Positions 185-60,271 of a DNA stretch of 64,000 bases are shown one piece after another (the stretch's first letter is position 1; each line of letters starts with the position of its first letter). The stretch lies in IMG/VR virus record IMGVR_UViG_3300044693_000272; one strand, given 5' to 3'. Position numbers and translations under genes: made by a program. The notes beneath the pieces were generated by a model that was not told where the DNA came from, did not search any database, and saw only the letters and a list, made by a program, of their open reading frames with translations. This stretch comes from a virus (taxonomy: Duplodnaviria; Heunggongvirae; Uroviricota; Caudoviricetes).

Positions 185-240
185 ATGTAATCAGTAACCA
201 AATGATAAACTCACCTGAGTCGCGTGTCAAACAATTTCAC
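185..240 (-). promoter_or_regulatory. conserved phage promoter/operator element: -35 TTGACA (225-230), 17-nt spacer, -10 TATCAT (202-207)
   Basis: Matches the repeated consensus; precedes the gene 1-171. Confidence 0.5.
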
Positions 241-3235: not shown

Positions 3236-3290
3236 AATCATCTCCGTAACATTTACCATAAAGATATGGTATGTTCATATGAACATGATG

Positions 3291-3602
3291 TCAAGGCTTC
3301 GGGGCGGGTGGATTAGGATGCGGTGGGGCAGAACTATTCGATGGCCATCGAATAACATATGGTTGATCAAGATCGTATGAGGAAAATATTGTTTCTCGAT
3401 AGCCTTGAGCCCAATCAACGAAACGGTACCACCATACCCAAAACAACGCAGCCAAAGCAAATTGAATGAAGGTGTTGATAGCAGGTTTCTGCAGTAAGTA
3501 CAGAAATGTAGGATATGCGATCAGAAATATAGCGACTGGAGCAAAGCACATCACGTAATATCGACGGCTTCCAATAGTCGGGCGTTGCAACCAAGACATC
3601 AA
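3291..3602 (-). CDS. hypothetical membrane protein with proline-rich C-terminus
   Basis: Hydrophobic segments; ORF track. Confidence 0.45.
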   Translation of the reverse strand: MMSWLQRPTIGSRRYYVMCFAPVAIFLIAYPTFLYLLQKPAINTFIQFALAALFWVWWYRFVDWAQGYRETIFSSYDLDQPYVIRWPSNSSAPPHPNPPAPKP

Positions 3603-3659
3603 TGCCTCTTAATGAATTTACCAAATGTATGGTAAATTCACTAGAAGTATTTGTCAACG

Positions 3660-20501: not shown

Positions 20502-20579
20502 TGGTCTCCAGTGCAAGATTCGAACTTGCGTCCCATGGTCCCAAACCACGTATACTAACCAGACTATACTAACCGGAGA
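20502..20579 (-). tRNA. tRNA-Pro (anticodon UGG)
   Basis: Hand-folded cloverleaf on the minus strand: acceptor tctccgg/ctggaga, anticodon stem cgtgg/ccatg, loop tTTGGga, T-arm gcaag-ttcgaat-cttgc, 3' CCA encoded. Confidence 0.6.
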
Positions 20580-20619: not shown

Positions 20620-20694
20620 TGGTGCGTCTGGAGAGGGTTGAACTCCCGACCTTGGCCTTGTAAGGGCCCTGCTCTTCCACTGAGCTACAGACGC
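20620..20694 (-). tRNA. tRNA-Val (anticodon UAC)
   Basis: Hand-folded: acceptor gcgtctg/cagacgc, D-stem gctc/gagc, anticodon loop cTTACaa, T-arm gggag-ttcaacc-ctctc, CCA encoded. Confidence 0.65.
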
Positions 20695-25985: not shown

Positions 25986-26014
25986 AAGGCTAACCCCTTT
26001 AAGGGGTTAGCCTT
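25986..26014 (-). terminator. rho-independent terminator after the H1-like protein gene
   Basis: aaggctaacccc-ttta-aggggttagcctt then TTTGTTTCATTG on the minus strand. Confidence 0.55.
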
Positions 26015-26034
26015 GATTATTGCGTAACATTAAC

Positions 26035-26865
26035 TTACGCTTGCGCTTCCTTCTTGTCTTGGCCCTTCTTGGAAGTCGACGCTTTCTTCACGGCAGCGGT
26101 TGTATTTTTTGCTTCGGCTGCCGCAGCGGGTGTCTGGCCTTCGACTTGTGCATCACCAGCCGGTGCATTCGTCGTTTCGCCTGTTGCTTGCTCGCCGTTG
26201 CTTTCAGCGCCGAAGTGCTGCATCAGTGCCTCTGCCGAGCTCGTGTCTTGTGCTTCACCAGCCGTCGCACTGGGTTGCTCTGTCGTTACACCACCCGTCG
26301 CCCCAGCGTTCGTTTCGGGTTGAGCGTTGGTTGGCTCAGTCGGCGCTTCGGGCTGTGCTTCAACTTGCTTCGACTTGCCCTTGCGTTCAGCTTTCGGCTT
26401 GTCAGCTTTTGCTGCCTTGGGTAATTTGTCGGGCTTGGGCAGTTTGTCGGCCTTGGCTTGCTTCGGTTCTTTTGCCGGTTCTTCAGCCTTTGCATCGGAC
26501 AGGGTCGCTGTCTTCATCAACGCGCTGTCCGCAACGATCAAAGTGGGGGTCGATTCGGCTGCATCGTCCGGAAGATCACGCAAGGTGAACCATCCGTAGC
26601 CGTCGTTGTGGAACAGGAATGATGTGCCGAGCTCGGGGCGAGGATACTTGAGGTCTTTGATGAAACTTGCGGGAATTTCAACCAGCGTTGCTCCGCTTTC
26701 AGCTTTTGCCGTGCGCGCTTGCATGTTTTTACCCGAAACGCGGTAGCTGGGGCGCAGGGCCAGGTATTCAACGCCCCCACGCTTCATCGTCTTGACACGA
26801 AGACGGGTGATACCATGGAGCAGCTCGACCGCCGCCCCGTTGAATTGCAGAACCAACGAAGACAT
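26035..26865 (-). CDS. protein with globular N-domain and long Ala/Lys/Pro/Glu-rich, histone H1-like low-complexity C-terminal tail
   Basis: AAAGGAGAA SD; tail PKPDKLPKAAKADKPKAERKGKS...; hairpin terminator 25986-26014 downstream. Confidence 0.55.
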   Translation of the reverse strand: MSSLVLQFNGAAVELLHGITRLRVKTMKRGGVEYLALRPSYRVSGKNMQARTAKAESGATLVEIPASFIKDLKYPRPELGTSFLFHNDGYGWFTLRDLPDDAAESTPTLIVADSALMKTATLSDAKAEEPAKEPKQAKADKLPKPDKLPKAAKADKPKAERKGKSKQVEAQPEAPTEPTNAQPETNAGATGGVTTEQPSATAGEAQDTSSAEALMQHFGAESNGEQATGETTNAPAGDAQVEGQTPAAAAEAKNTTAAVKKASTSKKGQDKKEAQA

Positions 26866-27022
26866 ATGAAATTCTCCTTTACTTCAAGTGAGTTTTTGAT
26901 CTAATCTTTCCACAAAACTGCTTGTGTAAATGAACTCTAACATCACCTGCTCACCTATACAAGCATTTTATGCTTATTCATCTTAAAAGAATACCACGTT
27001 TCATTTAAATCTGGTTTACGCC

Positions 27023-28599: not shown

Positions 28600-28971
28600 T
28601 TACTTCTTCGTCTTGTAGGTCTTGACTTTCTTGCGGCGCGCCGCGATACGAGGACGCTTGACCTTCACGTCGCGAACATCGAACGACAACTTGATCTTCG
28701 CAGCGTCTTCTTCGCTCGACAAGTACACTTTGTCGACGTAGATGATCTGGTTTTCGAATTCCTTCGGCCGACCCTTGACGCGCGTGGAATCCTTGTGCGT
28801 GTAGCACACCACCTTGTAGTAGCCCTTTGCATTTTCACGCAGCCACGTCAACACATCTTCCGGTGTGAGCTGGCTGTTGCCAAACCAGAAACGCACAGGA
28901 AATGCGTAGTAGTGGCTGATGTCACCGAAACGTTCGCTGTGGCGACCGAAATCTTTGATCGTTGTGGACAT
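28600..28971 (-). CDS. hypothetical protein with basic C-terminal tail (123 aa)
   Basis: GAGGAGGGAAAC SD; promoter motif 28993-29040. Confidence 0.5.
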   Translation of the reverse strand: MSTTIKDFGRHSERFGDISHYYAFPVRFWFGNSQLTPEDVLTWLRENAKGYYKVVCYTHKDSTRVKGRPKEFENQIIYVDKVYLSSEEDAAKIKLSFDVRDVKVKRPRIAARRKKVKTYKTKK

Positions 28972-28992: not shown

Positions 28993-29040
28993 TTTACCGT
29001 ACGTCAGATGATAAGTTCACCTGAATGTGGCGTCAATTGA
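28993..29040 (-). promoter_or_regulatory. conserved promoter/operator element: -35 TTGACG (29031-29036), -10 TATCAT (29008-29013)
   Basis: Consensus copy. Confidence 0.5.
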
Positions 29041-29043
29041 ATT

Positions 29044-29592
29044 TCATTCCACAAGCTTCAGATACTTTGCATCTACGGCATCAACCAGCCACACATCATT
29101 TGCTGACTTGTAGAAATCAACTTTATCAGCCAGCATAGCTTTAGAGTCAACTTCAATTACTACAGTTTTTCGAAACCGTTTCCGAGCCAGTTCAATGTCA
29201 GCAGTGAGATGAACGTGAGTACGTGTCATCTTATTGAGACCTTTCTTCTTGATGATCTCCCAAGCTTCGCTTGAAGTGCCGTGATACAAGATCACTGGCG
29301 GCACTGCTTTTTGCAACCCAGGATCAACATTAATGGAATGTCCTTGGTTTGCCCGAATTTTGGTGAAGTCTTCATTGAATGAATAACGGCCCTTCTGATC
29401 GTTAGCAACAATTCCTTTCAGGATTTCAAGATCAAATTCATAACCTGCTTTCTTGCCCGCCGCTATCACATCGTCTACTAGGATGAATGCTTGTTTGTCA
29501 ATTTTGACTTTTTGTTCTTTCGCACCATGTCGCAGCAAGTACGACAACCAAATACTATGCTTTTTGTACTTTTTATTGAAGTCTTCATTCAT
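29044..29592 (-). CDS. kptA: RNA 2'-phosphotransferase Tpt1/KptA
   Basis: Start at internal ATG (MNEDF), TAATG-coupled; motifs LSYLLRH, IRANQGHS, LYHGTSS, THVHL match the Tpt1 Arg-His-Arg-Arg and HGT signatures. Confidence 0.8.
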   Translation of the reverse strand: MNEDFNKKYKKHSIWLSYLLRHGAKEQKVKIDKQAFILVDDVIAAGKKAGYEFDLEILKGIVANDQKGRYSFNEDFTKIRANQGHSINVDPGLQKAVPPVILYHGTSSEAWEIIKKKGLNKMTRTHVHLTADIELARKRFRKTVVIEVDSKAMLADKVDFYKSANDVWLVDAVDAKYLKLVE

Positions 29593-29825
29593 TATTTTGG
29601 TATCCCATCTGTATATCCGAACACACCATAGCCACGCACACTCACCAAGTAAGTATCCCAACCAATGCGTTCATCTTTTCCTTGATGAAGGAATGCAATG
29701 TCGTCATGGCAAAAATGTGTCCCCATGCGTTCGTTAATTTCCGTCAACAAGTCTTCCTTCGTTTCGAAATTGAAGACCGTAGCCAGTGATTCGGCCAATC
29801 CACCACGATGTTCACGTGCTCGCAT
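29592..29825 (-). CDS. hypothetical protein (77 aa)
   Basis: GAGGGATATC SD; stop overlaps the Tpt1 start. Confidence 0.45.
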   Translation of the reverse strand: MRAREHRGGLAESLATVFNFETKEDLLTEINERMGTHFCHDDIAFLHQGKDERIGWDTYLVSVRGYGVFGYTDGIPK

Positions 29826-29829
29826 ATTC

Positions 29830-30990
29830 AGATATCCCTCTTGTTCGTTTTCATTGCGCGCTCAACTTCACGCTTGCCCTCACGTTCTTTTTCCGCTGTT
29901 CGCTTGTCATGTTGTTTCTTTCCCTTCGCCTCGCTGGAGCGTTATGCGCTCGTCGTCTTCGTTTCGCCGAACGCGATCGAACGTGCGCTCGGCGCAGTCC
30001 CCGGTTTCGCTTGGCCAGACTCCGTGCCGATCGGCGTGGTCGGGCCGGGCAGCGTGGCCGAACTGGCGCGGCAATGCCGTGCCGCGCCGAGGCATCAGGT
30101 CATCGCGCCCGCGGGGGCCGACGTGGGGAATGCGGCGCATCCTTTGCCGTTGCGTCGACTGGCTGCGCTTCATGAGCGGGCTTCAACGCGGGCTGATGGA
30201 CTGGCATCTCGCTCGCTTCTGGCAAAGCGATTTCGTCATCGACCCGGTGCCGGGAAACCGGAGTAGCCGTCCAGCGAGCAAGCCGATCAGGAAGTATTCC
30301 GCCGCGCGGCGCCGAGAGCGCCAGCGGATCGTATTGCTCCGTCCACCACAGGCCATCGATGTCGGGACAATGACGCTCGACGAAAATCATCAGGGCCATA
30401 TCCGTGCTCTCGGTCTGATTCAAACCGACTCGACCGACGGCCGATTCGAGGGCGGGCGTGCCAACCCATTGGCAGATCGGTTCGATGTACGGTTTCCCGT
30501 CGGGCCCAGGCGCATCGTCGGGCGAATCGAATTCGCCGGTATCGATCTCGCTCCATGCGGCTTCGCGCGAGTCGGCGACGAAGTAGTGCCATTCATCGCT
30601 ATCGGTGTCGAGATACCAGGCGCGGTATTGTTGCTCCGGTCGGAGCAGACCTTCGGACTGCGCCCACGAGCGTAATGCGGCTGTCCGGGTTTCGTCGGCC
30701 AGCAGTGCCAGGACGTCGACGAAGTTCGCATCGTGGTTCGTCAGCTCAAACCACGGCCGACCGCCGATGGTGGCGATCTCCTCCCATGCGTGGGGTGTCG
30801 TGGAGACCGACAGCGCATGTCCTTCGAGGCTTTGCCCGGTACTGTCGCGCGCGGCGGGGTTCATCTCGCCGATGTGAGTGACGCGTTCAATCGCGACGAC
30901 GGGGAGGTATGTAGGGCCGTGAGGCGCGATCGCCGGGCCGTCATCGCGCAGCGCGGGAGGACGCTGCTCAACAAAATGGAATTGTGCGTC
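29830..30990. other. compositional island at about 65% GC, against roughly 45% for the rest of the window
   Basis: By eye the segment is dominated by GC-rich runs (gcgcgccgaggcatcaggtcatcgcgcccgcgggggccgacgtgggg) and produces long open frames on both strands, which is typical of high-GC DNA. Confidence 0.6.
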
Positions 30991-31197
30991 GAGCTCCAGA
31001 AGGCGTGCCGCATAAGCACGACCACGATTGTTGACGACAGGCTCAAGCTTGCCAGTGATTTCGTTAATGTTGGCAACAGGAACATCGCCAAAAGTCTTGA
31101 TAAACGAGAAACGACGGCGAGACTTGGCGCCAGTAAGCGCACGAATGTGAACCTGTTTTTCGATGATGGGAACAGCAATATCCTTCCAAATAACCAT
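30100..31197 (-). CDS. chimeric hypothetical protein: phage-like N-terminus fused to a GC-rich (about 65% GC) body
   Basis: Start trimmed to MVIWKD (AGGAGATAAAAATG) after promoter motif 31214-31262; from about codon 70 the composition switches to high GC. Confidence 0.4.
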   Translation of the reverse strand: MVIWKDIAVPIIEKQVHIRALTGAKSRRRFSFIKTFGDVPVANINEITGKLEPVVNNRGRAYAARLLELDAQFHFVEQRPPALRDDGPAIAPHGPTYLPVVAIERVTHIGEMNPAARDSTGQSLEGHALSVSTTPHAWEEIATIGGRPWFELTNHDANFVDVLALLADETRTAALRSWAQSEGLLRPEQQYRAWYLDTDSDEWHYFVADSREAAWSEIDTGEFDSPDDAPGPDGKPYIEPICQWVGTPALESAVGRVGLNQTESTDMALMIFVERHCPDIDGLWWTEQYDPLALSAPRGGILPDRLARWTATPVSRHRVDDEIALPEASEMPVHQPALKPAHEAQPVDATAKDAPHSPRRPPRAR

Positions 31198-31213
31198 TTT
31201 TATCTCCTGTTCT

Positions 31214-31262
31214 TTACCATGTTCAAATGATACATTCACCTGAACATGGTGTCAACTGTTTT
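31214..31262 (-). promoter_or_regulatory. conserved promoter/operator element: -35 TTGACA (31250-31255), -10 TATCAT (31227-31232)
   Basis: Consensus copy preceding the chimeric GC-rich gene. Confidence 0.55.
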
Positions 31263-31464
31263 ATGGTGTTGCCGGATCCAAGTCACATGCTGCAACTTCG
31301 ATCACATCGATAAAAGGCACTCTACCAATGCGAACTTGGTAATAATCAACACCGTTCTTACGCATGCATTTCATCTTGATAGTACCCGTCCGACCAAGCA
31401 TCAAACCATAGTCTTTCTTCGTGTCTCGAGCAATTTTTACAACAGCATTGTCTGTGAATTGCAT
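31261..31464 (-). CDS. hypothetical protein (67 aa)
   Basis: ACAGGAGAATAG SD. Confidence 0.5.
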   Translation of the reverse strand: MQFTDNAVVKIARDTKKDYGLMLGRTGTIKMKCMRKNGVDYYQVRIGRVPFIDVIEVAACDLDPATP

Positions 31465-31583
31465 GAACTATTCTCCTGTTGTGTCTACCATGTATCGTAT
31501 TCTGCATTCATATGAATGAATTGTCAACGACCAAATGAATGGTTGGGCCTAGGAATCCTAGGCCCAACCACAGGAGAGCAGCG

Positions 31584-32414
31584 TTATTGCTTGGTGCTCA
31601 CATCGACTACTTTTGTGACACCACCAATATTTTCAGCTTGTGTTTGAGCTGCGTTGGCATTGCGCCAAGCGATCACTTCTTCAGGTGTAAGGTGAGCAGC
31701 ATCAGCTGCTGCTCTCAGAGCCTCTGCATCGATCGTAGCTTTCTTGCTTGCAAGTTCTTTGCGTTGCGCAATCAGCGCCAGCTCGGCCTTGTTGCGTTCT
31801 GCCTCGGCATTAAATGCCGCAACTGCGTTCACTTGTTGTTGAATCGAATCGGGCAACTTGAAATGCAACGTGAGGACCGATACCGACTCGAACGCGTTCG
31901 GGTATCGCGCATCAAGCACACGTTTGAATTCAGCGGAAGCTTTTTCGTCATACGCTTTCGTATTCTTCGCAATGGCTACCGGATCATCAGTTTCTGTTGC
32001 GGTTTGCATCACACCAGGGGCCAATTGCTTGATTGCTTCGAGCCCGATCGTGGTGTATTCACGCCCACTGCCGTCTTTGTATGTATCAAGTTCATGCGTG
32101 CTGGTGTAGAACTGTGCCACATACGTGGCGTTGAGCTTGTATGTGACAACGATATCCAAGTCATTTACAGGAACACCGTTGGCATCTTTGGGCGTGAGGT
32201 TGTTCACGGCCACTCTCGTCGGTGTCGTATCCACCTCTGCGAGCAGAGAATCAAAGACCATAGGGTGAAAGCCAGGATCTGCAACTTCAGGGTCAACTTT
32301 GCCGCCCCAGTGCTTGACAATGCCGACATTGCCAGATTCAATGCGCGTGCATCCGCTCATCGTCATCATTGCACCGATAGCCAATGCAACAATAAAGCCA
32401 ATCGTACGTTTCAT
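31584..32414 (-). CDS. SPFH/band-7 domain lipoprotein
   Basis: Signal peptide with lipobox (MMTMSGC); IESGNVGIVKHWGGKV...PGFH matches the SPFH N-terminal core; ACGGAGGGT SD. Confidence 0.6.
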   Translation of the reverse strand: MKRTIGFIVALAIGAMMTMSGCTRIESGNVGIVKHWGGKVDPEVADPGFHPMVFDSLLAEVDTTPTRVAVNNLTPKDANGVPVNDLDIVVTYKLNATYVAQFYTSTHELDTYKDGSGREYTTIGLEAIKQLAPGVMQTATETDDPVAIAKNTKAYDEKASAEFKRVLDARYPNAFESVSVLTLHFKLPDSIQQQVNAVAAFNAEAERNKAELALIAQRKELASKKATIDAEALRAAADAAHLTPEEVIAWRNANAAQTQAENIGGVTKVVDVSTKQ

Positions 32415-32454
32415 TTACCCTCCGTAGGTTGTTTGGTGCGCCAATTATACTATG

Positions 32455-32487
32455 GCAAAAAGAAAGCGGGAGTAAATTCTCCCGCTT
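32455..32487 (-). terminator. rho-independent terminator
   Basis: aagcgggag-aattta-ctcccgctt then TTCTTTTTGCC on the minus strand. Confidence 0.55.
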
Positions 32488-32503
32488 CGTAGCCAGATAT
32501 TAC

Positions 32504-33151
32504 TTACCAGCCAAAGCGATCACGCAGTTCCTTCTTGCGAGCTCGCGTTTCAGCACGCTTTGCACCAACATCCGCAGCTTCGGCCTTGTGCGCGTTGTAG
32601 CAAGCATCCAGCGACACATCGAACGCGTTCTTTTGCTTCAGCTTGACGGTAACGTCAGGATGCTTGTAGTTTGCCCATCCCATGCGAGAACCAACGCGCG
32701 TATACGAGGTTTCGACGTTAAAGCCCTTCAAGCGACCCTTAGCGAAATCGATCTCGCATACTTTAAAGTCGTAGTTTTTATTGGGGGTAGTGATCGTAAC
32801 AATATCACCAGGTTGGATGTTTTGCGTGATAATCACGTCCTTGTATGCAGCATAGTCACGCTCGTTTAGATCGCGTTGCTTGTCGGCGGCTTTTTTCGTC
32901 GTTTCTGCTGTGGCCTTTTTTGCAACGCTGGCATACGTCGCAAGTCGATTGCAAGCGCCATCCAGGTAATCACGGAACTTCCAGTGCCACGTTTTGCCAG
33001 TTGCGACGGATTCGAAGTGGAACGTGGTGTTTGCGCTGCGAGGAGCACGTTCAATGTTGATGATACGTGAACGACCAAATTTCTTTGCTTGACTAGCATC
33101 TTTAAGATCGATTTCCGCACCAACGACGAACAGTTCTACATTCTTCGACAT
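32504..33151 (-). CDS. hypothetical protein (about 215 aa; start MSKNVELF)
   Basis: ACAGGAGAGCAACAAATG; promoter motif upstream; terminator 32455-32487 downstream. Confidence 0.5.
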   Translation of the reverse strand: MSKNVELFVVGAEIDLKDASQAKKFGRSRIINIERAPRSANTTFHFESVATGKTWHWKFRDYLDGACNRLATYASVAKKATAETTKKAADKQRDLNERDYAAYKDVIITQNIQPGDIVTITTPNKNYDFKVCEIDFAKGRLKGFNVETSYTRVGSRMGWANYKHPDVTVKLKQKNAFDVSLDACYNAHKAEAADVGAKRAETRARKKELRDRFGW

Positions 33152-33225
33152 TTGTTGCTCTCCTGTGTTGTCTACCATATTCCTATTCTGCATTCATTTG
33201 GTTAGGAACGCAAGCGCTAAATGAA

Positions 33226-33411
33226 CTAACGCTTCAAAACCAGGTCCTGTCGCTCTGCTATATCGTTACGCCAACCACCACGATCAAGTTCGTGGCCATT
33301 AGCATCGAGAAGAACCCAGTCACCCTCTTCCGGTTTGCGCTCCAGAATGTAGCCATCAGCGGATTCATAACGTTCGTCACGCTTGACTACTTCCATTACC
33401 TTCTTGTTCAT
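33226..33411 (-). CDS. hypothetical protein (about 61 aa)
   Basis: Trimmed motif artefact; ACAGGAGACAGC SD. Confidence 0.45.
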   Translation of the reverse strand: MNKKVMEVVKRDERYESADGYILERKPEEGDWVLLDANGHELDRGGWRNDIAERQDLVLKR

Positions 33412-33528
33412 TGCTGTCTCCTGTTTGTCCACCACGTTCTTATAATAAGTTCATTTGAAAATAATATCAAGCGTTAAATGAACGAAGACCTCACAATTGT
33501 GAGGTCTTCAGTTTACTGCTTTTGTCGC

Positions 33529-33927
33529 TTATTTCAGCAGATCAGCAAGATCGTCGAAATAGTTCGCTACTTCTTGGAATCCAGAGCTATGGCCGTAATC
33601 CCAAGCAAGTTGAAATGCGCGTTCTGCTTTGGGGTGGCCTGTCACTCCATGCTGATCGAACAGATCACGCTTGAATTCAGCTTCGAGCGCAAAACGTGCT
33701 TCATGGTATTTGCGCATTTCAGTATGGTGCGCGTTTTTATCGATGTCTTCTTCGATAGTGTAACCCTTGGTTTGGTAATCGCGCATGTCTTCGTCACTGA
33801 TTTGACTGCGTAGAACACCATTCACGATCGTTTTGCCTTTGCTGTATACAAAGACTTTCTTGAAGTCATTCCGCGCTGGATACGGAACCGAAACAGTCTT
33901 GTAGTAATCGAATGCTTTGAGACCCAT
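33529..33927 (-). CDS. hypothetical protein (132 aa)
   Basis: ACGGAGAG SD. Confidence 0.5.
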   Translation of the reverse strand: MGLKAFDYYKTVSVPYPARNDFKKVFVYSKGKTIVNGVLRSQISDEDMRDYQTKGYTIEEDIDKNAHHTEMRKYHEARFALEAEFKRDLFDQHGVTGHPKAERAFQLAWDYGHSSGFQEVANYFDDLADLLK

Positions 33928-33995
33928 TTAAACTCTCCGTGTGTTTGCTTACCATGCTCAGATGGTAAGTTCACTTGGTAGATGAGTCAACACTT

Positions 33996-34304
33996 TTACA
34001 TGTGATCAAGACGTTCATCTCGTGTTTGGTATTTGTTTGCTTCAGGGTTCCAGCTTGCACCAAGAGCAGTAGCCATCACCCAGCCAAACAGTGTTCGATC
34101 ATCAGTGATCATTTCGATGTCACGTGAAAAACCAAGCACATTGAATGCTGCTTGAATAGCCTCCTGGCATTCAGGCAGAGGAAGTTGATTTAATTCATTT
34201 GCAAACCTTTTGTTGAATTTACCAGATGTTTTGGCATTGTAGTAAAGCACCAATACCTTCTCATGAGGTGCCCACTTCTGTTCTTGAATGTCGCTCATAT
34301 TCAA
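33996..34304 (-). CDS. hypothetical protein (102 aa)
   Basis: GAGGATTGAAT SD. Confidence 0.5.
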   Translation of the reverse strand: MNMSDIQEQKWAPHEKVLVLYYNAKTSGKFNKRFANELNQLPLPECQEAIQAAFNVLGFSRDIEMITDDRTLFGWVMATALGASWNPEANKYQTRDERLDHM

Positions 34305-36960: not shown

Positions 36961-37320
36961 TTAGTGATTCGTATTAACCTTGCCCTTTGCAAGATCGCTA
37001 TAGAAGTGCTTCGTGACATCTTGTACGAGACGCGGACACAGCGTCATTTGCATCGTTGCCGAGAGAATCGGCGTGTATACGTCACCACCATCCGTGCGGC
37101 CACCAATCTTTTCGGCCCACTTTTCCATGACCTTACCCATCTCGCTGAGATAACGCGTCTTGAACTTCAGCTTGCCGTTGCGGCGACCCCAGAAGTTGAC
37201 CAACTTACCGTCGATCTTAGCAATTCCCCAGATTTTATCGTTGCTTGCTGCACCGCCTGCGTTGCCACGTGCGCCTTCGTTGTAGAAGTGACCAAACTTG
37301 ATGATTTCGACGTTTGCCAT
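36961..37320 (-). CDS. WGR-domain protein (about 119 aa)
   Basis: Start trimmed to MANVEIIKFGH; KLVNFWGRRNGKLKFKT plus downstream A...F...K..KG pattern fit the WGR domain. Confidence 0.55.
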   Translation of the reverse strand: MANVEIIKFGHFYNEGARGNAGGAASNDKIWGIAKIDGKLVNFWGRRNGKLKFKTRYLSEMGKVMEKWAEKIGGRTDGGDVYTPILSATMQMTLCPRLVQDVTKHFYSDLAKGKVNTNH

Positions 37321-37541
37321 TTCGATCTCCTGTAAAGTTTGTTGCGTTGTCTTCACTGCTTACCATGTATCACATTCTAGGTTCATCTAAAGATGGCGTC
37401 AAGCAAATTTAAGGAGATTTTTAGATAAACTCGATCACGTCGATAGTTACAGTGCAAGCTGAATTGTGTGCCTCAAAGTGATTTATGTAGCCTAATGAAA
37501 GGTGGTGCAAGCAAAACTCGCACCACCTGGTTGCAAGGTTT

Positions 37542-48923: not shown

Positions 48924-49073
48924 GTGTTTCTCCTTGAAAAGTTACTACGTTGCGTTGTCTGTCAGTTACTGCTCACCACATGTCAAATGATAGGATCACT
49001 TAAATGTGGCGTCAACAGTTTTTCTAACTTTTTGAACGTGAGTAGCTAGGAATCAGAACTGGTGAAGGTATGG

Positions 49074-50731: not shown

Positions 50732-50790
50732 GTGATTCTCCGACTTTCGTAGTACAAGAACTCACATGATACGTTCATATGAACCGTAAG

Positions 50791-51066
50791 TCAACCCCAA
50801 GCCAGCAACCAGGCAACCGCATCAGTTTCATGCTGAAAATAAATTGCTGGTGGTATGAAATCTACTGCTGGGTTGAAACCGATCTTCCCCTTCACATTTT
50901 CAGTGCGCCAATCAGGATCCACTTCATAGAAGTGATCGTGTTTATCAGATAGTAATACTGAGCCAGGAAGGAAACGAACATTTCCCATTGTTCGAGACAT
51001 CCAGTTTCGAACTCGATCTTCGCCATATCTGGCTTGGAAGGCTGCGAATGAGAGTAACTGCATCAA
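50791..51066 (-). CDS. C-terminal-motif family member (91 aa)
   Basis: Ends TDAVAWLLAWG. Confidence 0.45.
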   Translation of the reverse strand: MMQLLSFAAFQARYGEDRVRNWMSRTMGNVRFLPGSVLLSDKHDHFYEVDPDWRTENVKGKIGFNPAVDFIPPAIYFQHETDAVAWLLAWG

Positions 51067-57007: not shown

Positions 57008-57055
57008 CTACCATGTTTCGCATGATATGTTCAGATGAACATGGTATCAAGTGTT
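57008..57055 (-). promoter_or_regulatory. conserved promoter/operator element: -35 TTGATA, -10 TATCAT (57023-57028)
   Basis: Consensus-like copy with GAACATGG repeat. Confidence 0.45.
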
Positions 57056-57974: not shown

Positions 57975-58030
57975 TTGAATCTCCTTTGCTGTTCACCATA
58001 CAAAGATGATACGTTCATATGAACCAAGTA

Positions 58031-58447
58031 TCAAGCGTTTTTGTCTTTTGCTGCTCTACGTTTGGCTGCGCGTTCAGTTGCTTCATGGGAAGTTTTGGCA
58101 GTATGACATGGTTCGCATAGCGTCTGCAAGTTTGGTAGTCGCCAGTAGTCCAAGTTTCCTTGAGCTTCCACGAGTGGTTTGATGTGATCCATGTGCCAAG
58201 GATTCTGGTAACGGTCGCACTTGGCACCACATTGATTACACTTTGCTCGATCGCGTTTGTACACTGCGCGACGGGTAGTGGCGGGCCAGAACAACAGTTT
58301 GTATTCAGCTAGACAGGCAGGATGCCAGCGTGATTTGCTTTGCTTGCCCTTAGGCGTTAGACCAACTTCTTGATTGCACCAACGACAAGTGCCTTCTGGC
58401 ACTGTATCGAAATATGGTGGCTTTGGAGGTGTACGGTGAGCACCCAT
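58031..58447 (-). CDS. HNH endonuclease
   Basis: CRWC ... HMDHIKP ... NLQTLCEPCHTAKT. Confidence 0.6.
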   Translation of the reverse strand: MGAHRTPPKPPYFDTVPEGTCRWCNQEVGLTPKGKQSKSRWHPACLAEYKLLFWPATTRRAVYKRDRAKCNQCGAKCDRYQNPWHMDHIKPLVEAQGNLDYWRLPNLQTLCEPCHTAKTSHEATERAAKRRAAKDKNA

Positions 58448-59198: not shown

Positions 59199-59256
59199 TT
59201 TCGAACGCTCCGTGTTGTTCATCATATTCAAATGATAGTTTCACTTGAACATGATG

Positions 59257-59448
59257 TCAACACCTATTTGCTTTGACGTGCGTAGCAAGAGTGTCCGCGA
59301 TTGATTGCAAATCACTAACACGAATCAACTTAGTGTTTGCAACAATTTGTCGCATGATTTGCTCAAGATGAGATTCGCATTCAAAATGAATGTCTTTGAA
59401 TTCAGGCGCACGGTCATTCGGAAAGAGATAAATTTTTGTCGTTACCAT
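59257..59448 (-). CDS. hypothetical protein (about 63 aa)
   Basis: AAGGAGTAGCGATATG start. Confidence 0.45.
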   Translation of the reverse strand: MVTTKIYLFPNDRAPEFKDIHFECESHLEQIMRQIVANTKLIRVSDLQSIADTLATHVKANRC

Positions 59449-59506
59449 ATCGCTACTCCTTATGCTGTTTTCATGTTTCAAATGATACGGCCAGTTGAAC
59501 GAGGAG

Positions 59507-60271
59507 TCAATGCTGGCGATACGTAAGGTTATTGTAAATCTCGTTATCGCAGATGTCTTCGCCTACATTGCGAAACACATAGACATTTCTACCCGAAAAG
59601 AACATTTCCATAGCTATGTCATCTACACGTGGATGTACGATAGCACCGTTAGGCGTGAGGAATGGGTTAAGAATGAAGTCCCAATCATTATGTCCCCAAT
59701 GCTTAAGGTGGGTAATATCGCCAGGAGTATCATTCAATCCTTCACGCAATACATAGTTGATTCTAATTTTGGAGAACGATGCGTAATGCATGGATACGGA
59801 TTCCAAAATCCGATAAATCGGATCAGATTTTGGAATCATCTTATCACGAATCGACTGATTAAAAGTGTGCATCGACACCTGTAACTCAGCAGGGAAAGTG
59901 GTAGTATCAAGAAAACGTATCCGGCGGGATGCAACCCCACTTATCGAATAACGAACTGATGTGATCGGTATGCTAAGAGTGTAGAGGGTTGATAAAGCAT
60001 TGCTCACATTCTCGGTGTTAAAGAGAACATCACCCTCGCCAGTAAATGAAAGAACAAATGGGTGATTTGGTGCATTTTTGACCACCAAATCAACAATCTC
60101 ATCAGCAGTGAGATTACGAACAAATTTATTGGTAGTTGATACGCAAAATGAACAACCGACCGGACAACCAATCTGCGTTGGAACACTTAGGACATTTTTA
60201 TTACCAGCACTGACATTCAGTACTGGCACGCTGATGTCTTTGATTGGTATGTGCCGAAGATAAACGCTCAC
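59507..60271 (-). CDS. radical SAM domain protein (254 aa), GTG start
   Basis: GCPVGCSFC is the CxxxCxxC cluster motif; SFTGEGDVLF is a glycine-rich SAM-binding segment; the start is GTG 3 nt after the upstream stop. Confidence 0.55.
   Translation of the reverse strand: MSVYLRHIPIKDISVPVLNVSAGNKNVLSVPTQIGCPVGCSFCVSTTNKFVRNLTADEIVDLVVKNAPNHPFVLSFTGEGDVLFNTENVSNALSTLYTLSIPITSVRYSISGVASRRIRFLDTTTFPAELQVSMHTFNQSIRDKMIPKSDPIYRILESVSMHYASFSKIRINYVLREGLNDTPGDITHLKHWGHNDWDFILNPFLTPNGAIVHPRVDDIAMEMFFSGRNVYVFRNVGEDICDNEIYNNLTYRQH

What the first reader, a model, noticed from the sequence alone, without database searches (positions are those of the whole stretch)
29830..31197. Approximately 1.15-kb GC-rich island creating a chimeric gene
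Composition jumps from roughly 45% to about 65% GC inside the minus-strand gene 30100-31197. Its first roughly 70 codons and its promoter and RBS are phage-typical, while the remainder is GC-rich. Long ORFs appear on both strands (29698-30675 plus; 30100-31239 minus), as expected for high-GC DNA. This looks like recent in-frame capture of foreign, possibly host-derived, DNA by a phage gene, or a cargo moron lacking its own signals. The source DNA also hints that the host is a high-GC bacterium.
Basis: seen in the sequence. Interest (0 to 1): 0.6.

Follow-up and report, generated by a model that had tools for sequence, protein, structure and literature searches.

The report
Host DNA patch fused into megaphage gene
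A roughly 520-kb bacteriophage recently picked up about 1.08 kb of foreign high-GC DNA, which welded a toxin-like enzyme gene in frame onto one of its own small genes, destroyed its smpB gene, and left a fragment of a Trinickia housekeeping gene (hemD) that points to the phage's likely host.

Summary
Window 29925-31002 is about 65% GC in a 43.7% GC genome, about 6 SD above any other equal-sized stretch, and the change-points match homology breakpoints.

The insert has two parts.
- 30222-31002 (minus strand) is a nearly complete gene of an unannotated ~230-aa family with an ADP-ribosyltransferase/RES-toxin-like fold. The family is otherwise found on megaplasmids, jumbo phages and large high-GC contigs. 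Here it is fused in frame after codon 65 of a small conserved megaphage gene and driven by that gene's promoter and RBS.
- 29925-30221 (plus strand) is an internal, dead fragment of hemD/hemX that nests inside the genus Trinickia (Burkholderiaceae). Read antisense, it supplies the last 40 codons and the stop of the chimera.

The insertion deleted the tail of the small gene and the first ~118 codons of the phage's smpB; a 33-codon remnant remains. The left junction shows 5-nt microhomology. Relatives L011, L012 and L098 lack the insert. Four independent assemblies carry it. The hemD piece shows no amelioration, so the capture is recent. Enzymatic function is inferred from fold only.

The parts
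31227..31255 (-). Sigma-70-type promoter of the chimeric gene: TTGACA-N17-TATCAT with a palindromic spacer GTTCA-N3-TGAAC.
   Evidence: It matches 11 of 12 consensus positions. It is one of 12 such sites in the window, all on the minus strand, against 0.72 expected by chance.
31204..31208 (-). Ribosome-binding site AGGAG, 6 nt upstream of ATG 31197.
   Evidence: Read directly from the sequence.
31003..31197 (-). Codons 1-65 of a small conserved megaphage gene (77-82 aa in relatives). This is the recipient part of the chimera. It is 48% GC.
   Evidence: tblastn of the L011 and L012 small proteins matches exactly 31197-31003 at 85% and 51% identity. See also alignment A2, and blastn homology to L011 ends at 31004. 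The region has low model confidence, pLDDT below 50.
30906..31002 (-). The 32 foreign codons (66-97) upstream of the conserved core. They contain no in-frame ATG, GTG or TTG, so translation of the domain depends on the phage start codon.
   Evidence: Sequence. Homolog alignments start at 30906-30918. This stretch is 64.5% GC.
30222..30905 (-). Conserved core (residues 98-325) of an unannotated ~230-aa family with an ART/RES-toxin-like fold. It is 63% GC with GC3 of 0.72.
29925..30221 (+). Internal, non-functional fragment of the fused uroporphyrinogen-III synthase gene hemD/hemX (about residues 53-146 of 660) of Trinickia type. It is 68.7% GC. Its part 30103-30221, read antisense, forms codons 326-365 of the chimera.
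   Evidence: NF005411 match at E 8.8e-24, profile positions 53-146; PF02602 match. Best genomes are all Trinickia, 71-86% aa identity and up to 82-83% nt identity. It nests inside the genus in an NJ tree. GC3 is 0.80 and there is no decay.
30100..30102 (-). TGA stop codon of the chimeric ORF, lying inside the antisense hemD fragment.
30065..30088 (-). Perfect 9-bp GC hairpin with a 6-nt loop, 12 nt after the stop. There is no T-run, so it is not a canonical terminator. The loop is inverted between the two haplotypes.
   Evidence: No terminator was called here.
29828..29929 (-). Remnant of the phage smpB gene: the last 33 codons plus the stop. The first ~118 codons were deleted by the insertion.
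   Evidence: tblastn of L011 SmpB residues 119-150 matches 29929-29834 at 72% identity, E 6e-10, and there is no other SmpB in the window. L098 nucleotide homology starts at exactly 29929 and continues into the next gene. L011 SmpB matches PF01668 at 4e-57.
29925..29929 (.). Left junction: 5-nt microhomology TTCGC shared by the end of smpB homology and the start of Trinickia hemD homology.
   Evidence: Base-level comparison with five Trinickia loci and with L011 smpB.

Best explanation
SHOWN. Window 29925-31002 is a ~1.08-kb patch of foreign high-GC DNA that replaced part of a megaphage genome. It removed the last 12-17 codons of a small conserved gene and the first ~118 codons of the phage's smpB. 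The patch is a mosaic of two unrelated pieces joined head-to-tail. Piece 1 (30222-31002, minus strand) is a nearly complete gene of an unannotated ~230-aa family with an ADP-ribosyltransferase (ART)/RES-toxin-like fold. The family normally occurs as a free-standing gene on megaplasmids, jumbo phages and other large high-GC replicons. Piece 1 landed in frame after codon 65 of the phage gene and has no start codon of its own. It can therefore only be made as a fusion protein from the phage gene's early-type sigma-70 promoter, RBS and ATG. Piece 2 (29925-30221, plus strand) is a dead internal fragment of the housekeeping gene hemD/hemX, and it falls phylogenetically inside the genus Trinickia. 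Read backwards, it supplies 40 meaningless codons and the stop codon of the fusion.

INFERRED.
1. The mechanism was illegitimate (microhomology-mediated, end-joining-type) recombination during replication in a cell containing Trinickia DNA. That makes Trinickia or a very close relative the likely host.
2. The event was recent, because the hemD fragment shows no compositional amelioration or decay.
3. If the fusion protein is functional, it acts as an NAD+-using enzyme (ADP-ribosyltransferase, NADase or NAD+ phosphorylase) expressed early in infection to modify or deplete a host or defence target. Phage ARTs such as T4 Alt/Mod and AcrF11 act in this way.

I put about 0.85 on the origin and architecture account and about 0.4 on the enzymatic role.
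For: - Composition: the island is 65% GC against 43.7% (sd 3.4%) elsewhere, with change-points at 29922 and 30967.
- Recipient gene: L011 (524 kb) and L012 (360 kb) have 82- and 77-aa genes identical in register to window codons 1-65, after which they diverge and stop.
- smpB remnant: found at 29929-29828, and L098 and L011 place the breakpoint at smpB codon 119.
- hemD fragment: NF005411 E 8.8e-24. The best-matching reference genomes are almost all Trinickia. Its 83% nt identity to the nearest Trinickia MAG is within the genus range of 72-93% and above the between-genus range of 60-71%, and it nests in the genus in the tree.
- Microhomology TTCGC at the left junction.
- No amelioration: GC3 is 0.80 against 0.82-0.88 in Trinickia. 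There are 10 lineage-specific changes against 8-13 in real orthologs, with 3 S>W and 3 W>S.
- Domain family: homologs cover only residues ~98-325. They sit in 53-66% GC contigs with matching GC. There are 1,374 representatives, mostly 205-260 aa.
- Domain integrity: all family-invariant residues are retained.
- Real sequence, not an artefact: the same junctions appear in the JGI 523-kb contig, in a protein recorded on a 218-kb contig, and in two Logan assemblies. There are two haplotypes, each seen at least twice.
- Phage signals: the promoter and RBS are of phage type.
- Host class: the phage clade's SmpB is betaproteobacterial at 70-75% identity.
Against: - No donor sequence closer than 82-83% nt identity (hemD) or 55% aa identity (domain) is available, so the donor species is unsampled and the R and M junctions cannot be checked for microhomology.
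- A 43.7% GC phage on a ~67% GC host is a large mismatch. From my own knowledge, precedents exist such as phiKZ on P. aeruginosa.
- The N-terminal 97 and C-terminal 40 residues are predicted to be disordered.
- Because the capture is recent, an intact ORF is not evidence of selection. The two haplotypes differ by only one non-synonymous and one synonymous change in the domain.
- The event destroyed two phage genes and could simply be a tolerated accident.
Confidence: 0.85

Rival explanations
1. The capture is real, but the chimeric ORF is a non-functional by-product. On this view it is a recent, tolerated or mildly deleterious scar of illegitimate recombination that happens to be open because stop codons are rare in high-GC DNA.
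For: The event is recent, so intactness need not reflect selection. The chance of correct orientation plus frame is about 1 in 6, which is not small. The flanking 97 N-terminal and 40 C-terminal residues are low-confidence or disordered. The tail is antisense hemD. Two phage genes were damaged. Only two near-identical haplotypes are known.
Against: The complete conserved core with every family-invariant residue is present. It sits behind a strong phage promoter and RBS. The lineage carrying it was recovered in several assemblies and as two haplotypes, so it persisted long enough to diversify slightly.
Confidence: 0.35
2. The two foreign pieces were not taken directly from the host chromosome. 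They were already joined on an intermediate mobile element (a megaplasmid or another phage of a Burkholderiaceae bacterium) that had earlier picked up the hemD fragment. The megaphage then acquired the pre-made block in one two-ended event.
For: The ART-like family lives on megaplasmids and jumbo phages, not near hemD. All 14 plasmid hits are on replicons of 0.53-1.3 Mb, there is one jumbo phage hit, and none of 80 hemD loci has the gene within 3 kb. The domain's GC and GC3 (63%, 0.72) are lower than those of Trinickia chromosomal DNA (67-68%, 0.80-0.88), as is usual for mobile elements. One event with two junctions is more parsimonious than one with three.
Against: No such element has been found. 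The nearest homologs are only 54-55% identical and show no hemD fragment. Simultaneous ligation of several DNA fragments is also a known outcome of end-joining (my own knowledge).
Confidence: 0.3
3. The island is a metagenome assembly chimera that joins phage and Burkholderiaceae reads.
For: The contigs are metagenomic, and the island has abrupt boundaries.
Against: The same three junctions occur in two JGI contigs (523 kb and, by its protein, 218 kb). They also occur in two Logan contigs from different sequencing runs, which were made with a different assembler. Two haplotypes differing at 6 sites are each seen at least twice. A chimera would have to enter and leave foreign DNA twice within 1.1 kb, stay in frame, and delete smpB.
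Confidence: 0.02
4. The GC-rich segment is an old, native phage gene whose composition is intrinsically high, so there was no transfer.
For: Some phage genes in the window have raised GC3, for example the 123-aa gene 28600-28971 with GC3 0.73.
Against: Relatives L011, L012 and L098 lack the segment and have other genes in its place. The segment contains a fragment of a bacterial housekeeping gene on the opposite strand. It also interrupts smpB.
Confidence: 0.02

Closest known systems
RES-domain toxins of toxin-antitoxin systems (MbcT NAD+ phosphorylase, ParT, NatT, Xre-RES)
   Different: There is no sequence relationship: no Pfam RES hit in any of 40 members and about 8% identity. The domain is about 237 aa against 140-180 aa, with roughly 115 extra residues. 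No conserved Xre or antitoxin partner is seen in the neighbourhoods examined. The invariant residues are H, S-x-S, E, W, DG-WW and SAPRGG, not the R-E-S pattern.
Phage-encoded ADP-ribosyltransferases (T4 Alt/ModA/ModB; anti-CRISPR AcrF11)
   Different: There is no sequence similarity and no significant match in the viral structure library (best E 0.13). Activity and target are unknown. Here the gene is a fresh acquisition fused to another protein's N-terminus.
Phage 'morons' and host-gene capture by illegitimate recombination
   Same: Foreign DNA of atypical composition is inserted between conserved phage genes and is absent from relatives. There is microhomology at a junction.
   Different: A classical moron brings its own promoter and terminator. 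This piece has neither and is expressed only as an in-frame fusion. It replaced phage genes instead of being added, and it carries a non-functional passenger fragment of a host housekeeping gene.
Translation-related genes of huge phages (SmpB, tmRNA)
   Same: Relatives of this phage encode a full SmpB, as reported for huge phages in PMC7162821.
   Different: In this lineage smpB has been truncated to its last 33 codons by the insertion. I could not check whether a second copy exists elsewhere in the ~520-kb genome.

Membership tests
ADP-ribosyltransferase (ART) superfamily | The ART core fold, a split beta-sheet NAD+-binding core. | tested here: met
ADP-ribosyltransferase (ART) superfamily | A catalytic motif set (H-Y-E or R-S-E) placed on strands beta1, beta2 and beta5. 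| tested here: inconclusive
   The family has an invariant H (HxG on a strand), an S-V-S on the next strand and conserved E residues. I could not superpose coordinates to show that they occupy the catalytic positions.
ADP-ribosyltransferase (ART) superfamily | NAD+ binding and ADP-ribosyl transfer or NAD+ cleavage. | not testable with these tools
   This needs biochemistry.
RES domain toxins (Pfam RES; Xre-RES / MbcTA / ParST) | A match to the RES sequence profile. | tested here: not met
   No Pfam family matched the window protein or any of 40 family members. There was no PDB sequence match for the profile.
RES domain toxins (Pfam RES; Xre-RES / MbcTA / ParST) | An adjacent cognate antitoxin gene (Xre, MbcA or ParS) in a two-gene operon. 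| tested here: not met
   Eight neighbourhoods were inspected and show no conserved partner. One locus (L001) has an HTH_3 gene downstream. In the window the neighbours are phage genes.
Fused HemD/HemX, NCBIfam NF005411 | A full-length match above the curated cut-off, with start and stop codons. | tested here: not met
   Only profile positions 53-146 of 660 are present, scoring 83.8 bits against a cut-off of 414. The fragment has no start codon, is truncated at both ends and runs antisense to local transcription. It is a gene fragment, not a gene.
Fused HemD/HemX, NCBIfam NF005411 | Sequence homology of the fragment to Burkholderiaceae hemD. | tested here: met
   E 8.8e-24. Identity to Trinickia is 71-86% aa and 72-83% nt.
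SmpB (PF01668) | An intact ~150-aa SmpB ORF. | tested here: not met
   Only the C-terminal 33 codons remain (29929-29828). Of these, 32 align to L011 SmpB at 72% identity. The full genes in L011 and L098 serve as references.
Phage moron (autonomous cargo cassette) | Its own promoter and terminator flanking the foreign ORF. | tested here: not met
   There is no promoter-like or terminator-like site inside the island. The only promoter is the phage one upstream of ATG 31197. There is no in-frame start codon in the foreign part.

The most novel reading that the evidence does not exclude
The captured protein represents an undescribed clade of NAD+-targeting ART/RES-like enzymes that is a hallmark of giant extrachromosomal replicons (megaplasmids of at least 0.5 Mb and jumbo or megaphages), used for host takeover or counter-defence. 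On this reading the window catches domain shuffling in progress. The 65-residue N-terminus of a conserved megaphage protein would be re-used as a targeting or partner-binding module, for example for packaging into the virion or localisation within the infected cell, for a newly acquired enzyme. The cost to the phage was the loss of its own smpB.
Probability: 0.15. Interest if true: 0.7.

Novelty: new member of a known kind. Interest (0 to 1): 0.5.

Why it matters
1. Host assignment is the main bottleneck for uncultivated huge phages. Here a dead fragment of a housekeeping gene, still compositionally and phylogenetically Trinickia, gives a specific and testable host hypothesis for a ~520-kb phage whose own GC content (44%) gives no such clue.
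2. It is an unusually clean natural snapshot of how phage genes are created by illegitimate recombination. All three junctions, the pre-insertion state in relatives, the microhomology, the collateral gene loss (smpB) and the unameliorated donor DNA are all visible.
3. It draws attention to a large family (more than 1,300 clusters) of ART/RES-like proteins with no Pfam model that appears to be enriched on very large replicons.

Tried and rejected
- Nucleotide searches of the island and its surroundings against 50,697 cultured-phage records found nothing in either near or distant mode.
- Pfam and NCBIfam on the chimeric protein gave only a sub-threshold DUF6630 hit (E 0.017), which I discarded.
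- PHROGs, PADLOC, Pfam and the PDB sequence profile on 40 family members gave nothing usable.
- Foldseek against the viral structure library BFVD gave no significant hit.
- The afdb50 fold library was unavailable.
- Look-up of P0034, the protein recorded on the 218-kb contig, returned no record, so that contig could not be read.
- The 325-aa plus-strand ORF 29698-30675 has no family hits and was rejected as a gene.
- I looked for the ART-like gene next to hemD in 80 Burkholderiaceae loci and found none.
- I looked for a second copy of the small recipient gene or of smpB in the window and found none.
- A literature search for the sample and run identifiers gave no papers, so the environment is unknown.
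- I considered an out-of-frame ATG in the foreign linker as the donor's original start. I rejected it because that frame is not homologous to the family and stops early (read by eye).
- The hairpin after the stop was considered as a terminator and rejected because it has no T-run.
Full report
1. OBSERVATION

The compositional island is real and extreme for this window. The 1-kb bin 30001-31000 is 64.7% GC, whereas all 63 other bins lie between 36% and 53%. In 200-bp windows GC rises from 0.45-0.48 at 29600-29900 to 0.67-0.72 at 29900-30200. It stays at 0.62-0.65 to 31000 and falls back to 0.43-0.48 by 31000-31300. A two-boundary maximum-likelihood fit puts the change-points at 29922 (2-lnL support 29916-29946) and 30967 (support 30957-31058). 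No other 1066-bp stretch of the window exceeds 54.2% GC (mean 43.7%, sd 3.4%), so the island is about 6 sd out.

2. GENOME CONTEXT

- The exact 379-aa JGI gene call for this ORF (P0001) lies on a 523,572-bp contig.
- The window is about 99.7% identical to that contig, apart from a hypervariable block at 31.5-34 kb.
- Relatives in IMG/VR are viral contigs of 523,836 bp (L011) and 360,227 bp (L012). A further relative (L098, 307 kb) is recorded in 160 blocks of the contig collection.
- The window consists of short minus-strand ORFs, most of the 46 genes called in the 21 kb around the island having no Pfam hit, with a few PHROG matches, two tRNAs and a repeated promoter type.
- I conclude that it is an accessory-gene region of a megaphage. 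It has no nucleotide match among cultured phages.

3. THE RECIPIENT GENE

- Upstream of ATG 31197 lie a TTGACA-N17-TATCAT promoter (31255-31227, 11 of 12 consensus positions) and an AGGAG RBS. The GTG at 31239 used in the JGI call lies inside that promoter, so 31197 is the start; the Logan gene calls agree at 365 aa.
- The promoter belongs to a family of 12 sites in the window, all on the minus strand, against 0.72 expected by chance. They share a palindromic spacer, GTTCA-N3-TGAAC.
- In L011 and L012 the homologous gene is short, at 82 and 77 aa. It matches window residues 1-65 in register, through the invariant motif VVNNRGRAYAAR, and then ends in a short basic tail.
- tblastn places the match at exactly 31197-31003, and blastn homology to L011 stops at 31004.
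- The chimeric gene therefore keeps 65 codons of a conserved small megaphage gene. No second copy of that gene exists in the window.

4. FOREIGN PIECE 1: AN ART/RES-LIKE GENE

Homologs and composition
- A search of 5.8 billion proteins found 12 homolog clusters besides the gene's own cluster. All align only to residues ~98-330, the GC-rich part. On the DNA they map to 30906/30918 down to ~30220.
- A profile search without a word index shows that the family is large. It has 1,374 cluster representatives at E up to 1e-3 and 849 at E up to 1e-30, mostly free-standing proteins of 205-260 aa.
- In their own contigs the homologs match the local composition. Gene GC is 63-67% in loci of 58-66% GC (L001, L006, L010), GC3 across five homologs is 0.64-0.82, and locus GC across the five is 53-66%. 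In the window the core is 63% GC with GC3 of 0.72, inside a genome whose genes mostly have GC3 of 0.30-0.50.
- The 32 foreign codons upstream of the core contain no in-frame ATG, GTG or TTG. The domain can therefore be translated only from the phage start codon.
- All residues invariant across the family are present in the window copy.

Where the family occurs
- No Pfam, PADLOC or PDB-sequence match exists for any of 40 members. PHROGs gave a single sub-threshold hit in one member.
- All 14 tblastn hits in PLSDB are on megaplasmids of 0.53-1.32 Mb, including pMPPla107, Variovorax, Bosea and Rhizobium.
- The single hit among cultured phages is the 209-kb Dolichospermum jumbo phage Dfl-JY45.
- Neighbourhoods are runs of hypothetical genes without a conserved partner.

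Structure
- The full-length model is confident only for residues ~90-335. The phage N-terminus and the C-terminal tail are below pLDDT 50.
- A domain-only model built from 40 sequences reaches pLDDT 94.7 and pTM 0.90.
- About 110-120 of the 237 residues align at about 8% identity. I take this as a fold-level assignment to the ART superfamily, nearest the RES branch. It is not membership of any named family.
- The viral structure library gave nothing.

5. FOREIGN PIECE 2: A TRINICKIA hemD FRAGMENT

- The GC-rich DNA continues 175 bp past the stop codon.
- On the plus strand, 29925-30221 matches the fused HemD/HemX equivalog NF005411 at profile positions 53-146 of 660 (E 8.8e-24), and Pfam HEM4.
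- Protein hits are Burkholderia and Paraburkholderia HemD at up to 83% identity. All start abruptly at 29925.
- Among one genome per species (GTDB), nine of the eleven best loci are titled Trinickia. The other two are an uncultured betaproteobacterium MAG and an uncultured Burkholderiaceae MAG. These eleven are 71-86% identical at protein level. Mycoavidus, Paraburkholderia and Caballeronia are at most 68%.
- At nucleotide level the fragment is 83% identical to Trinickia bin104. That lies inside the within-genus range (72-93%, median 77%) and above the Trinickia-versus-other-genera range (60-71%). In an NJ tree it nests within Trinickia as sister to bin104.
- The fragment has no start or stop codon, is truncated at both ends, and runs antisense to local transcription, so it is a fossil.
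- Its 3' part, read backwards, forms codons 326-365 and the TGA of the chimeric ORF.
- hemD would continue past residue 146 exactly where the ART-like gene ends (~30222-30233), and none of 80 hemD loci has the ART-like gene nearby. The two pieces are therefore joined by a third novel junction.

6. WHAT WAS LOST

- The 99 bp between the island and the next gene encode AKGKKQHDKRTAEKEREGKREVERAMKTNKRDI*.
- tblastn with the SmpB of L011 (PF01668, E 4e-57) matches window 29929-29834 to SmpB residues 119-150 at 72% identity (E 6e-10). There is no other SmpB in the window.
- In L098, nucleotide homology to the window begins at exactly 29929 (smpB codon 119). It runs through the smpB stop into the 77-aa gene, with the same tight gene junction as in the window.
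- The insertion therefore removed the first ~118 codons of smpB.
- In L011 the interval between the small gene and the 77-aa gene holds the end of the small gene, a 70-aa gene, smpB and a 122-aa gene (1,162 bp), where the window has 1,178 bp.
- SmpB in huge phages has been reported before (PMC7162821).

7. JUNCTIONS, MECHANISM AND AGE

- At the left junction, smpB homology extends to 29929 and Trinickia hemD homology begins at 29925. The shared TTCGC is a 5-nt microhomology, the signature of illegitimate, end-joining-type recombination (established knowledge).
- The right junction (31002/31003) and the middle junction (~30222-30233) cannot be assessed without the donor sequence.
- In the hemD reading frame the fragment keeps GC3 of 0.80, against 0.82-0.88 in Trinickia.
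- At sites at least 80% conserved in the Trinickia clade, the fragment has 10 private changes (3 S>W, 3 W>S, 4 S>S). Genuine Trinickia orthologs have 8-13, and there is no GC-to-AT excess.
- There is therefore no detectable decay or amelioration. The capture is recent, and the ~17% divergence from references reflects an unsampled donor species.

8. NOT AN ARTEFACT

- The 90%-identity cluster of the chimeric protein has four full-length members, from two JGI contigs (523 kb and 218 kb) and two Logan contigs.
- The Logan contigs L004 (SRR23978794) and L005 (SRR23978796) span 31242-30044 and 31242-30021. L004 is 100% identical to the window, and L005 has 6 mismatches.
- Those 6 differences are the same ones that separate the window from the 523-kb contig.
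- There are therefore two haplotypes, each seen at least twice and with different assemblers.

9. HOST INFERENCE

- Recombination must take place in a cell where the phage replicates. The hemD fossil therefore points to Trinickia or a close relative as host. Alternatively, it points to a mobile element resident in such a host that already carried the fragment.
- Independently, the intact SmpB of sister phage L011 is 70-75% identical to betaproteobacterial SmpBs from Rhodocyclaceae, Vogesella, Crenobacter and Nitrosomonadales. This is consistent at class level.
- The 23-point GC gap between phage and putative host is large. From my own knowledge it is not unprecedented for jumbo phages (phiKZ on P. 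aeruginosa).

10. FUNCTION (INFERRED)

- If the fusion is made, it comes from an early-type sigma-70 promoter and carries a complete ART/RES-like core.
- By analogy with RES toxins (NAD+ phosphorylase, NADase, ADP-ribosylation of Prs) and phage ARTs (T4 Alt/Mod, AcrF11), the most likely activity is NAD+-dependent modification or NAD+ depletion directed at a host or defence component.
- This rests on fold similarity alone. I could not place the catalytic residues or test expression. Because the capture is recent, an intact ORF does not prove selection. I put about 0.4 on an enzymatic role and 0.35 on the ORF being a tolerated scar.

11. VERDICT

- The phenomenon, capture of foreign or host DNA by a phage through illegitimate recombination with creation of a fusion gene, is a known kind of event. 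This is a particularly complete new example.
- Its added value is a host-identifying gene fossil in an uncultivated megaphage, collateral loss of smpB, and a large unannotated ART/RES-like family enriched on giant replicons.
- Interest is 0.5.

Noticed in passing
window 31501-34050 (also 37000-37500): The window and the 523-kb JGI contig are about 99.7% identical, except for a ~2.5-kb block that is about 20% divergent. The block contains the Band_7/lipoprotein gene (31584-32414, phrog_200) and the genes after it. This looks like a recombinational replacement between strains.
   Followed up: partly
window 30065-30088 (loop 30074-30079): A perfect 9-bp GC hairpin lies just after the stop codon, inside the hemD fragment. 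Its 6-nt loop is CGGCAT in the window and in L004, but the exact reverse complement ATGCCG in the 523-kb contig and in L005. This loop-inversion polymorphism is typical of template switching at palindromes.
   Followed up: yes
window 202-230, 2883-2911, 3266-3294, 3629-3657, 29008-29036, 31227-31255, 48987-49015, 50766-50794, 57022-57050, 58006-58034, 59232-59260, 59482-59510 (all minus strand): There is a family of 12 sigma-70-like promoters of the form TTGACA-N4-GTTCA-N3-TGAAC-N2-TATCAT. The conserved palindrome in the spacer could be an operator for a phage or host regulator. Only 0.72 sites are expected by chance. Similar ~50-nt upstream elements recur in L011 and L098.
   Followed up: partly
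window 29044-29661 (minus strand): This is a Tpt1/KptA RNA 2'-phosphotransferase gene (PF01885 at 7e-43; phrog_5470), itself an ART-fold enzyme, two genes downstream of the island. At the same position L011 has no such gene and L098 has a 57-aa gene instead, so this neighbourhood is a hot spot of gene turnover.
   Followed up: partly
window 31239 vs 31197: The JGI gene call (379 aa, GTG 31239) starts inside the promoter. The Logan call (365 aa, ATG 31197, preceded by AGGAG) is the plausible start.
   Followed up: yes
PLSDB hits H1-H14; phage PP438435.1 8414-9005: Every plasmid carrying a member of the ART/RES-like family is a megaplasmid of 0.53-1.32 Mb, and the only cultured phage with one is a 209-kb jumbo phage. 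The family may be specific to very large replicons. I did not test this statistically against the size distribution of PLSDB.
   Followed up: partly
window 28600-28971 (minus strand): This 123-aa gene is conserved in L011 and L098. It has GC3 of 0.73, far above neighbouring phage genes (0.30-0.50), although its overall GC is ordinary.
   Followed up: no
window 20502-20578 and 20620-20694 (minus strand): Two adjacent tRNA genes: tRNA-Pro(TGG) and tRNA-Val(TAC).
   Followed up: no
window 26001-27000: This is the second-highest GC bin of the window (53.2%), with a strong negative AT skew (-0.28). I did not examine it.
   Followed up: no
L006-L009 (contigs of 143-208 kb): The 546-aa family member P0013 lies next to a type I CRISPR-Cas module (Cas3, Cas_GSU0053/0054) and to Phage_lysozyme2, RadC, RF-1 and PcfJ-like genes on ~65% GC contigs. 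These contigs are probably a large plasmid or huge phage that carries CRISPR-Cas.
   Followed up: no
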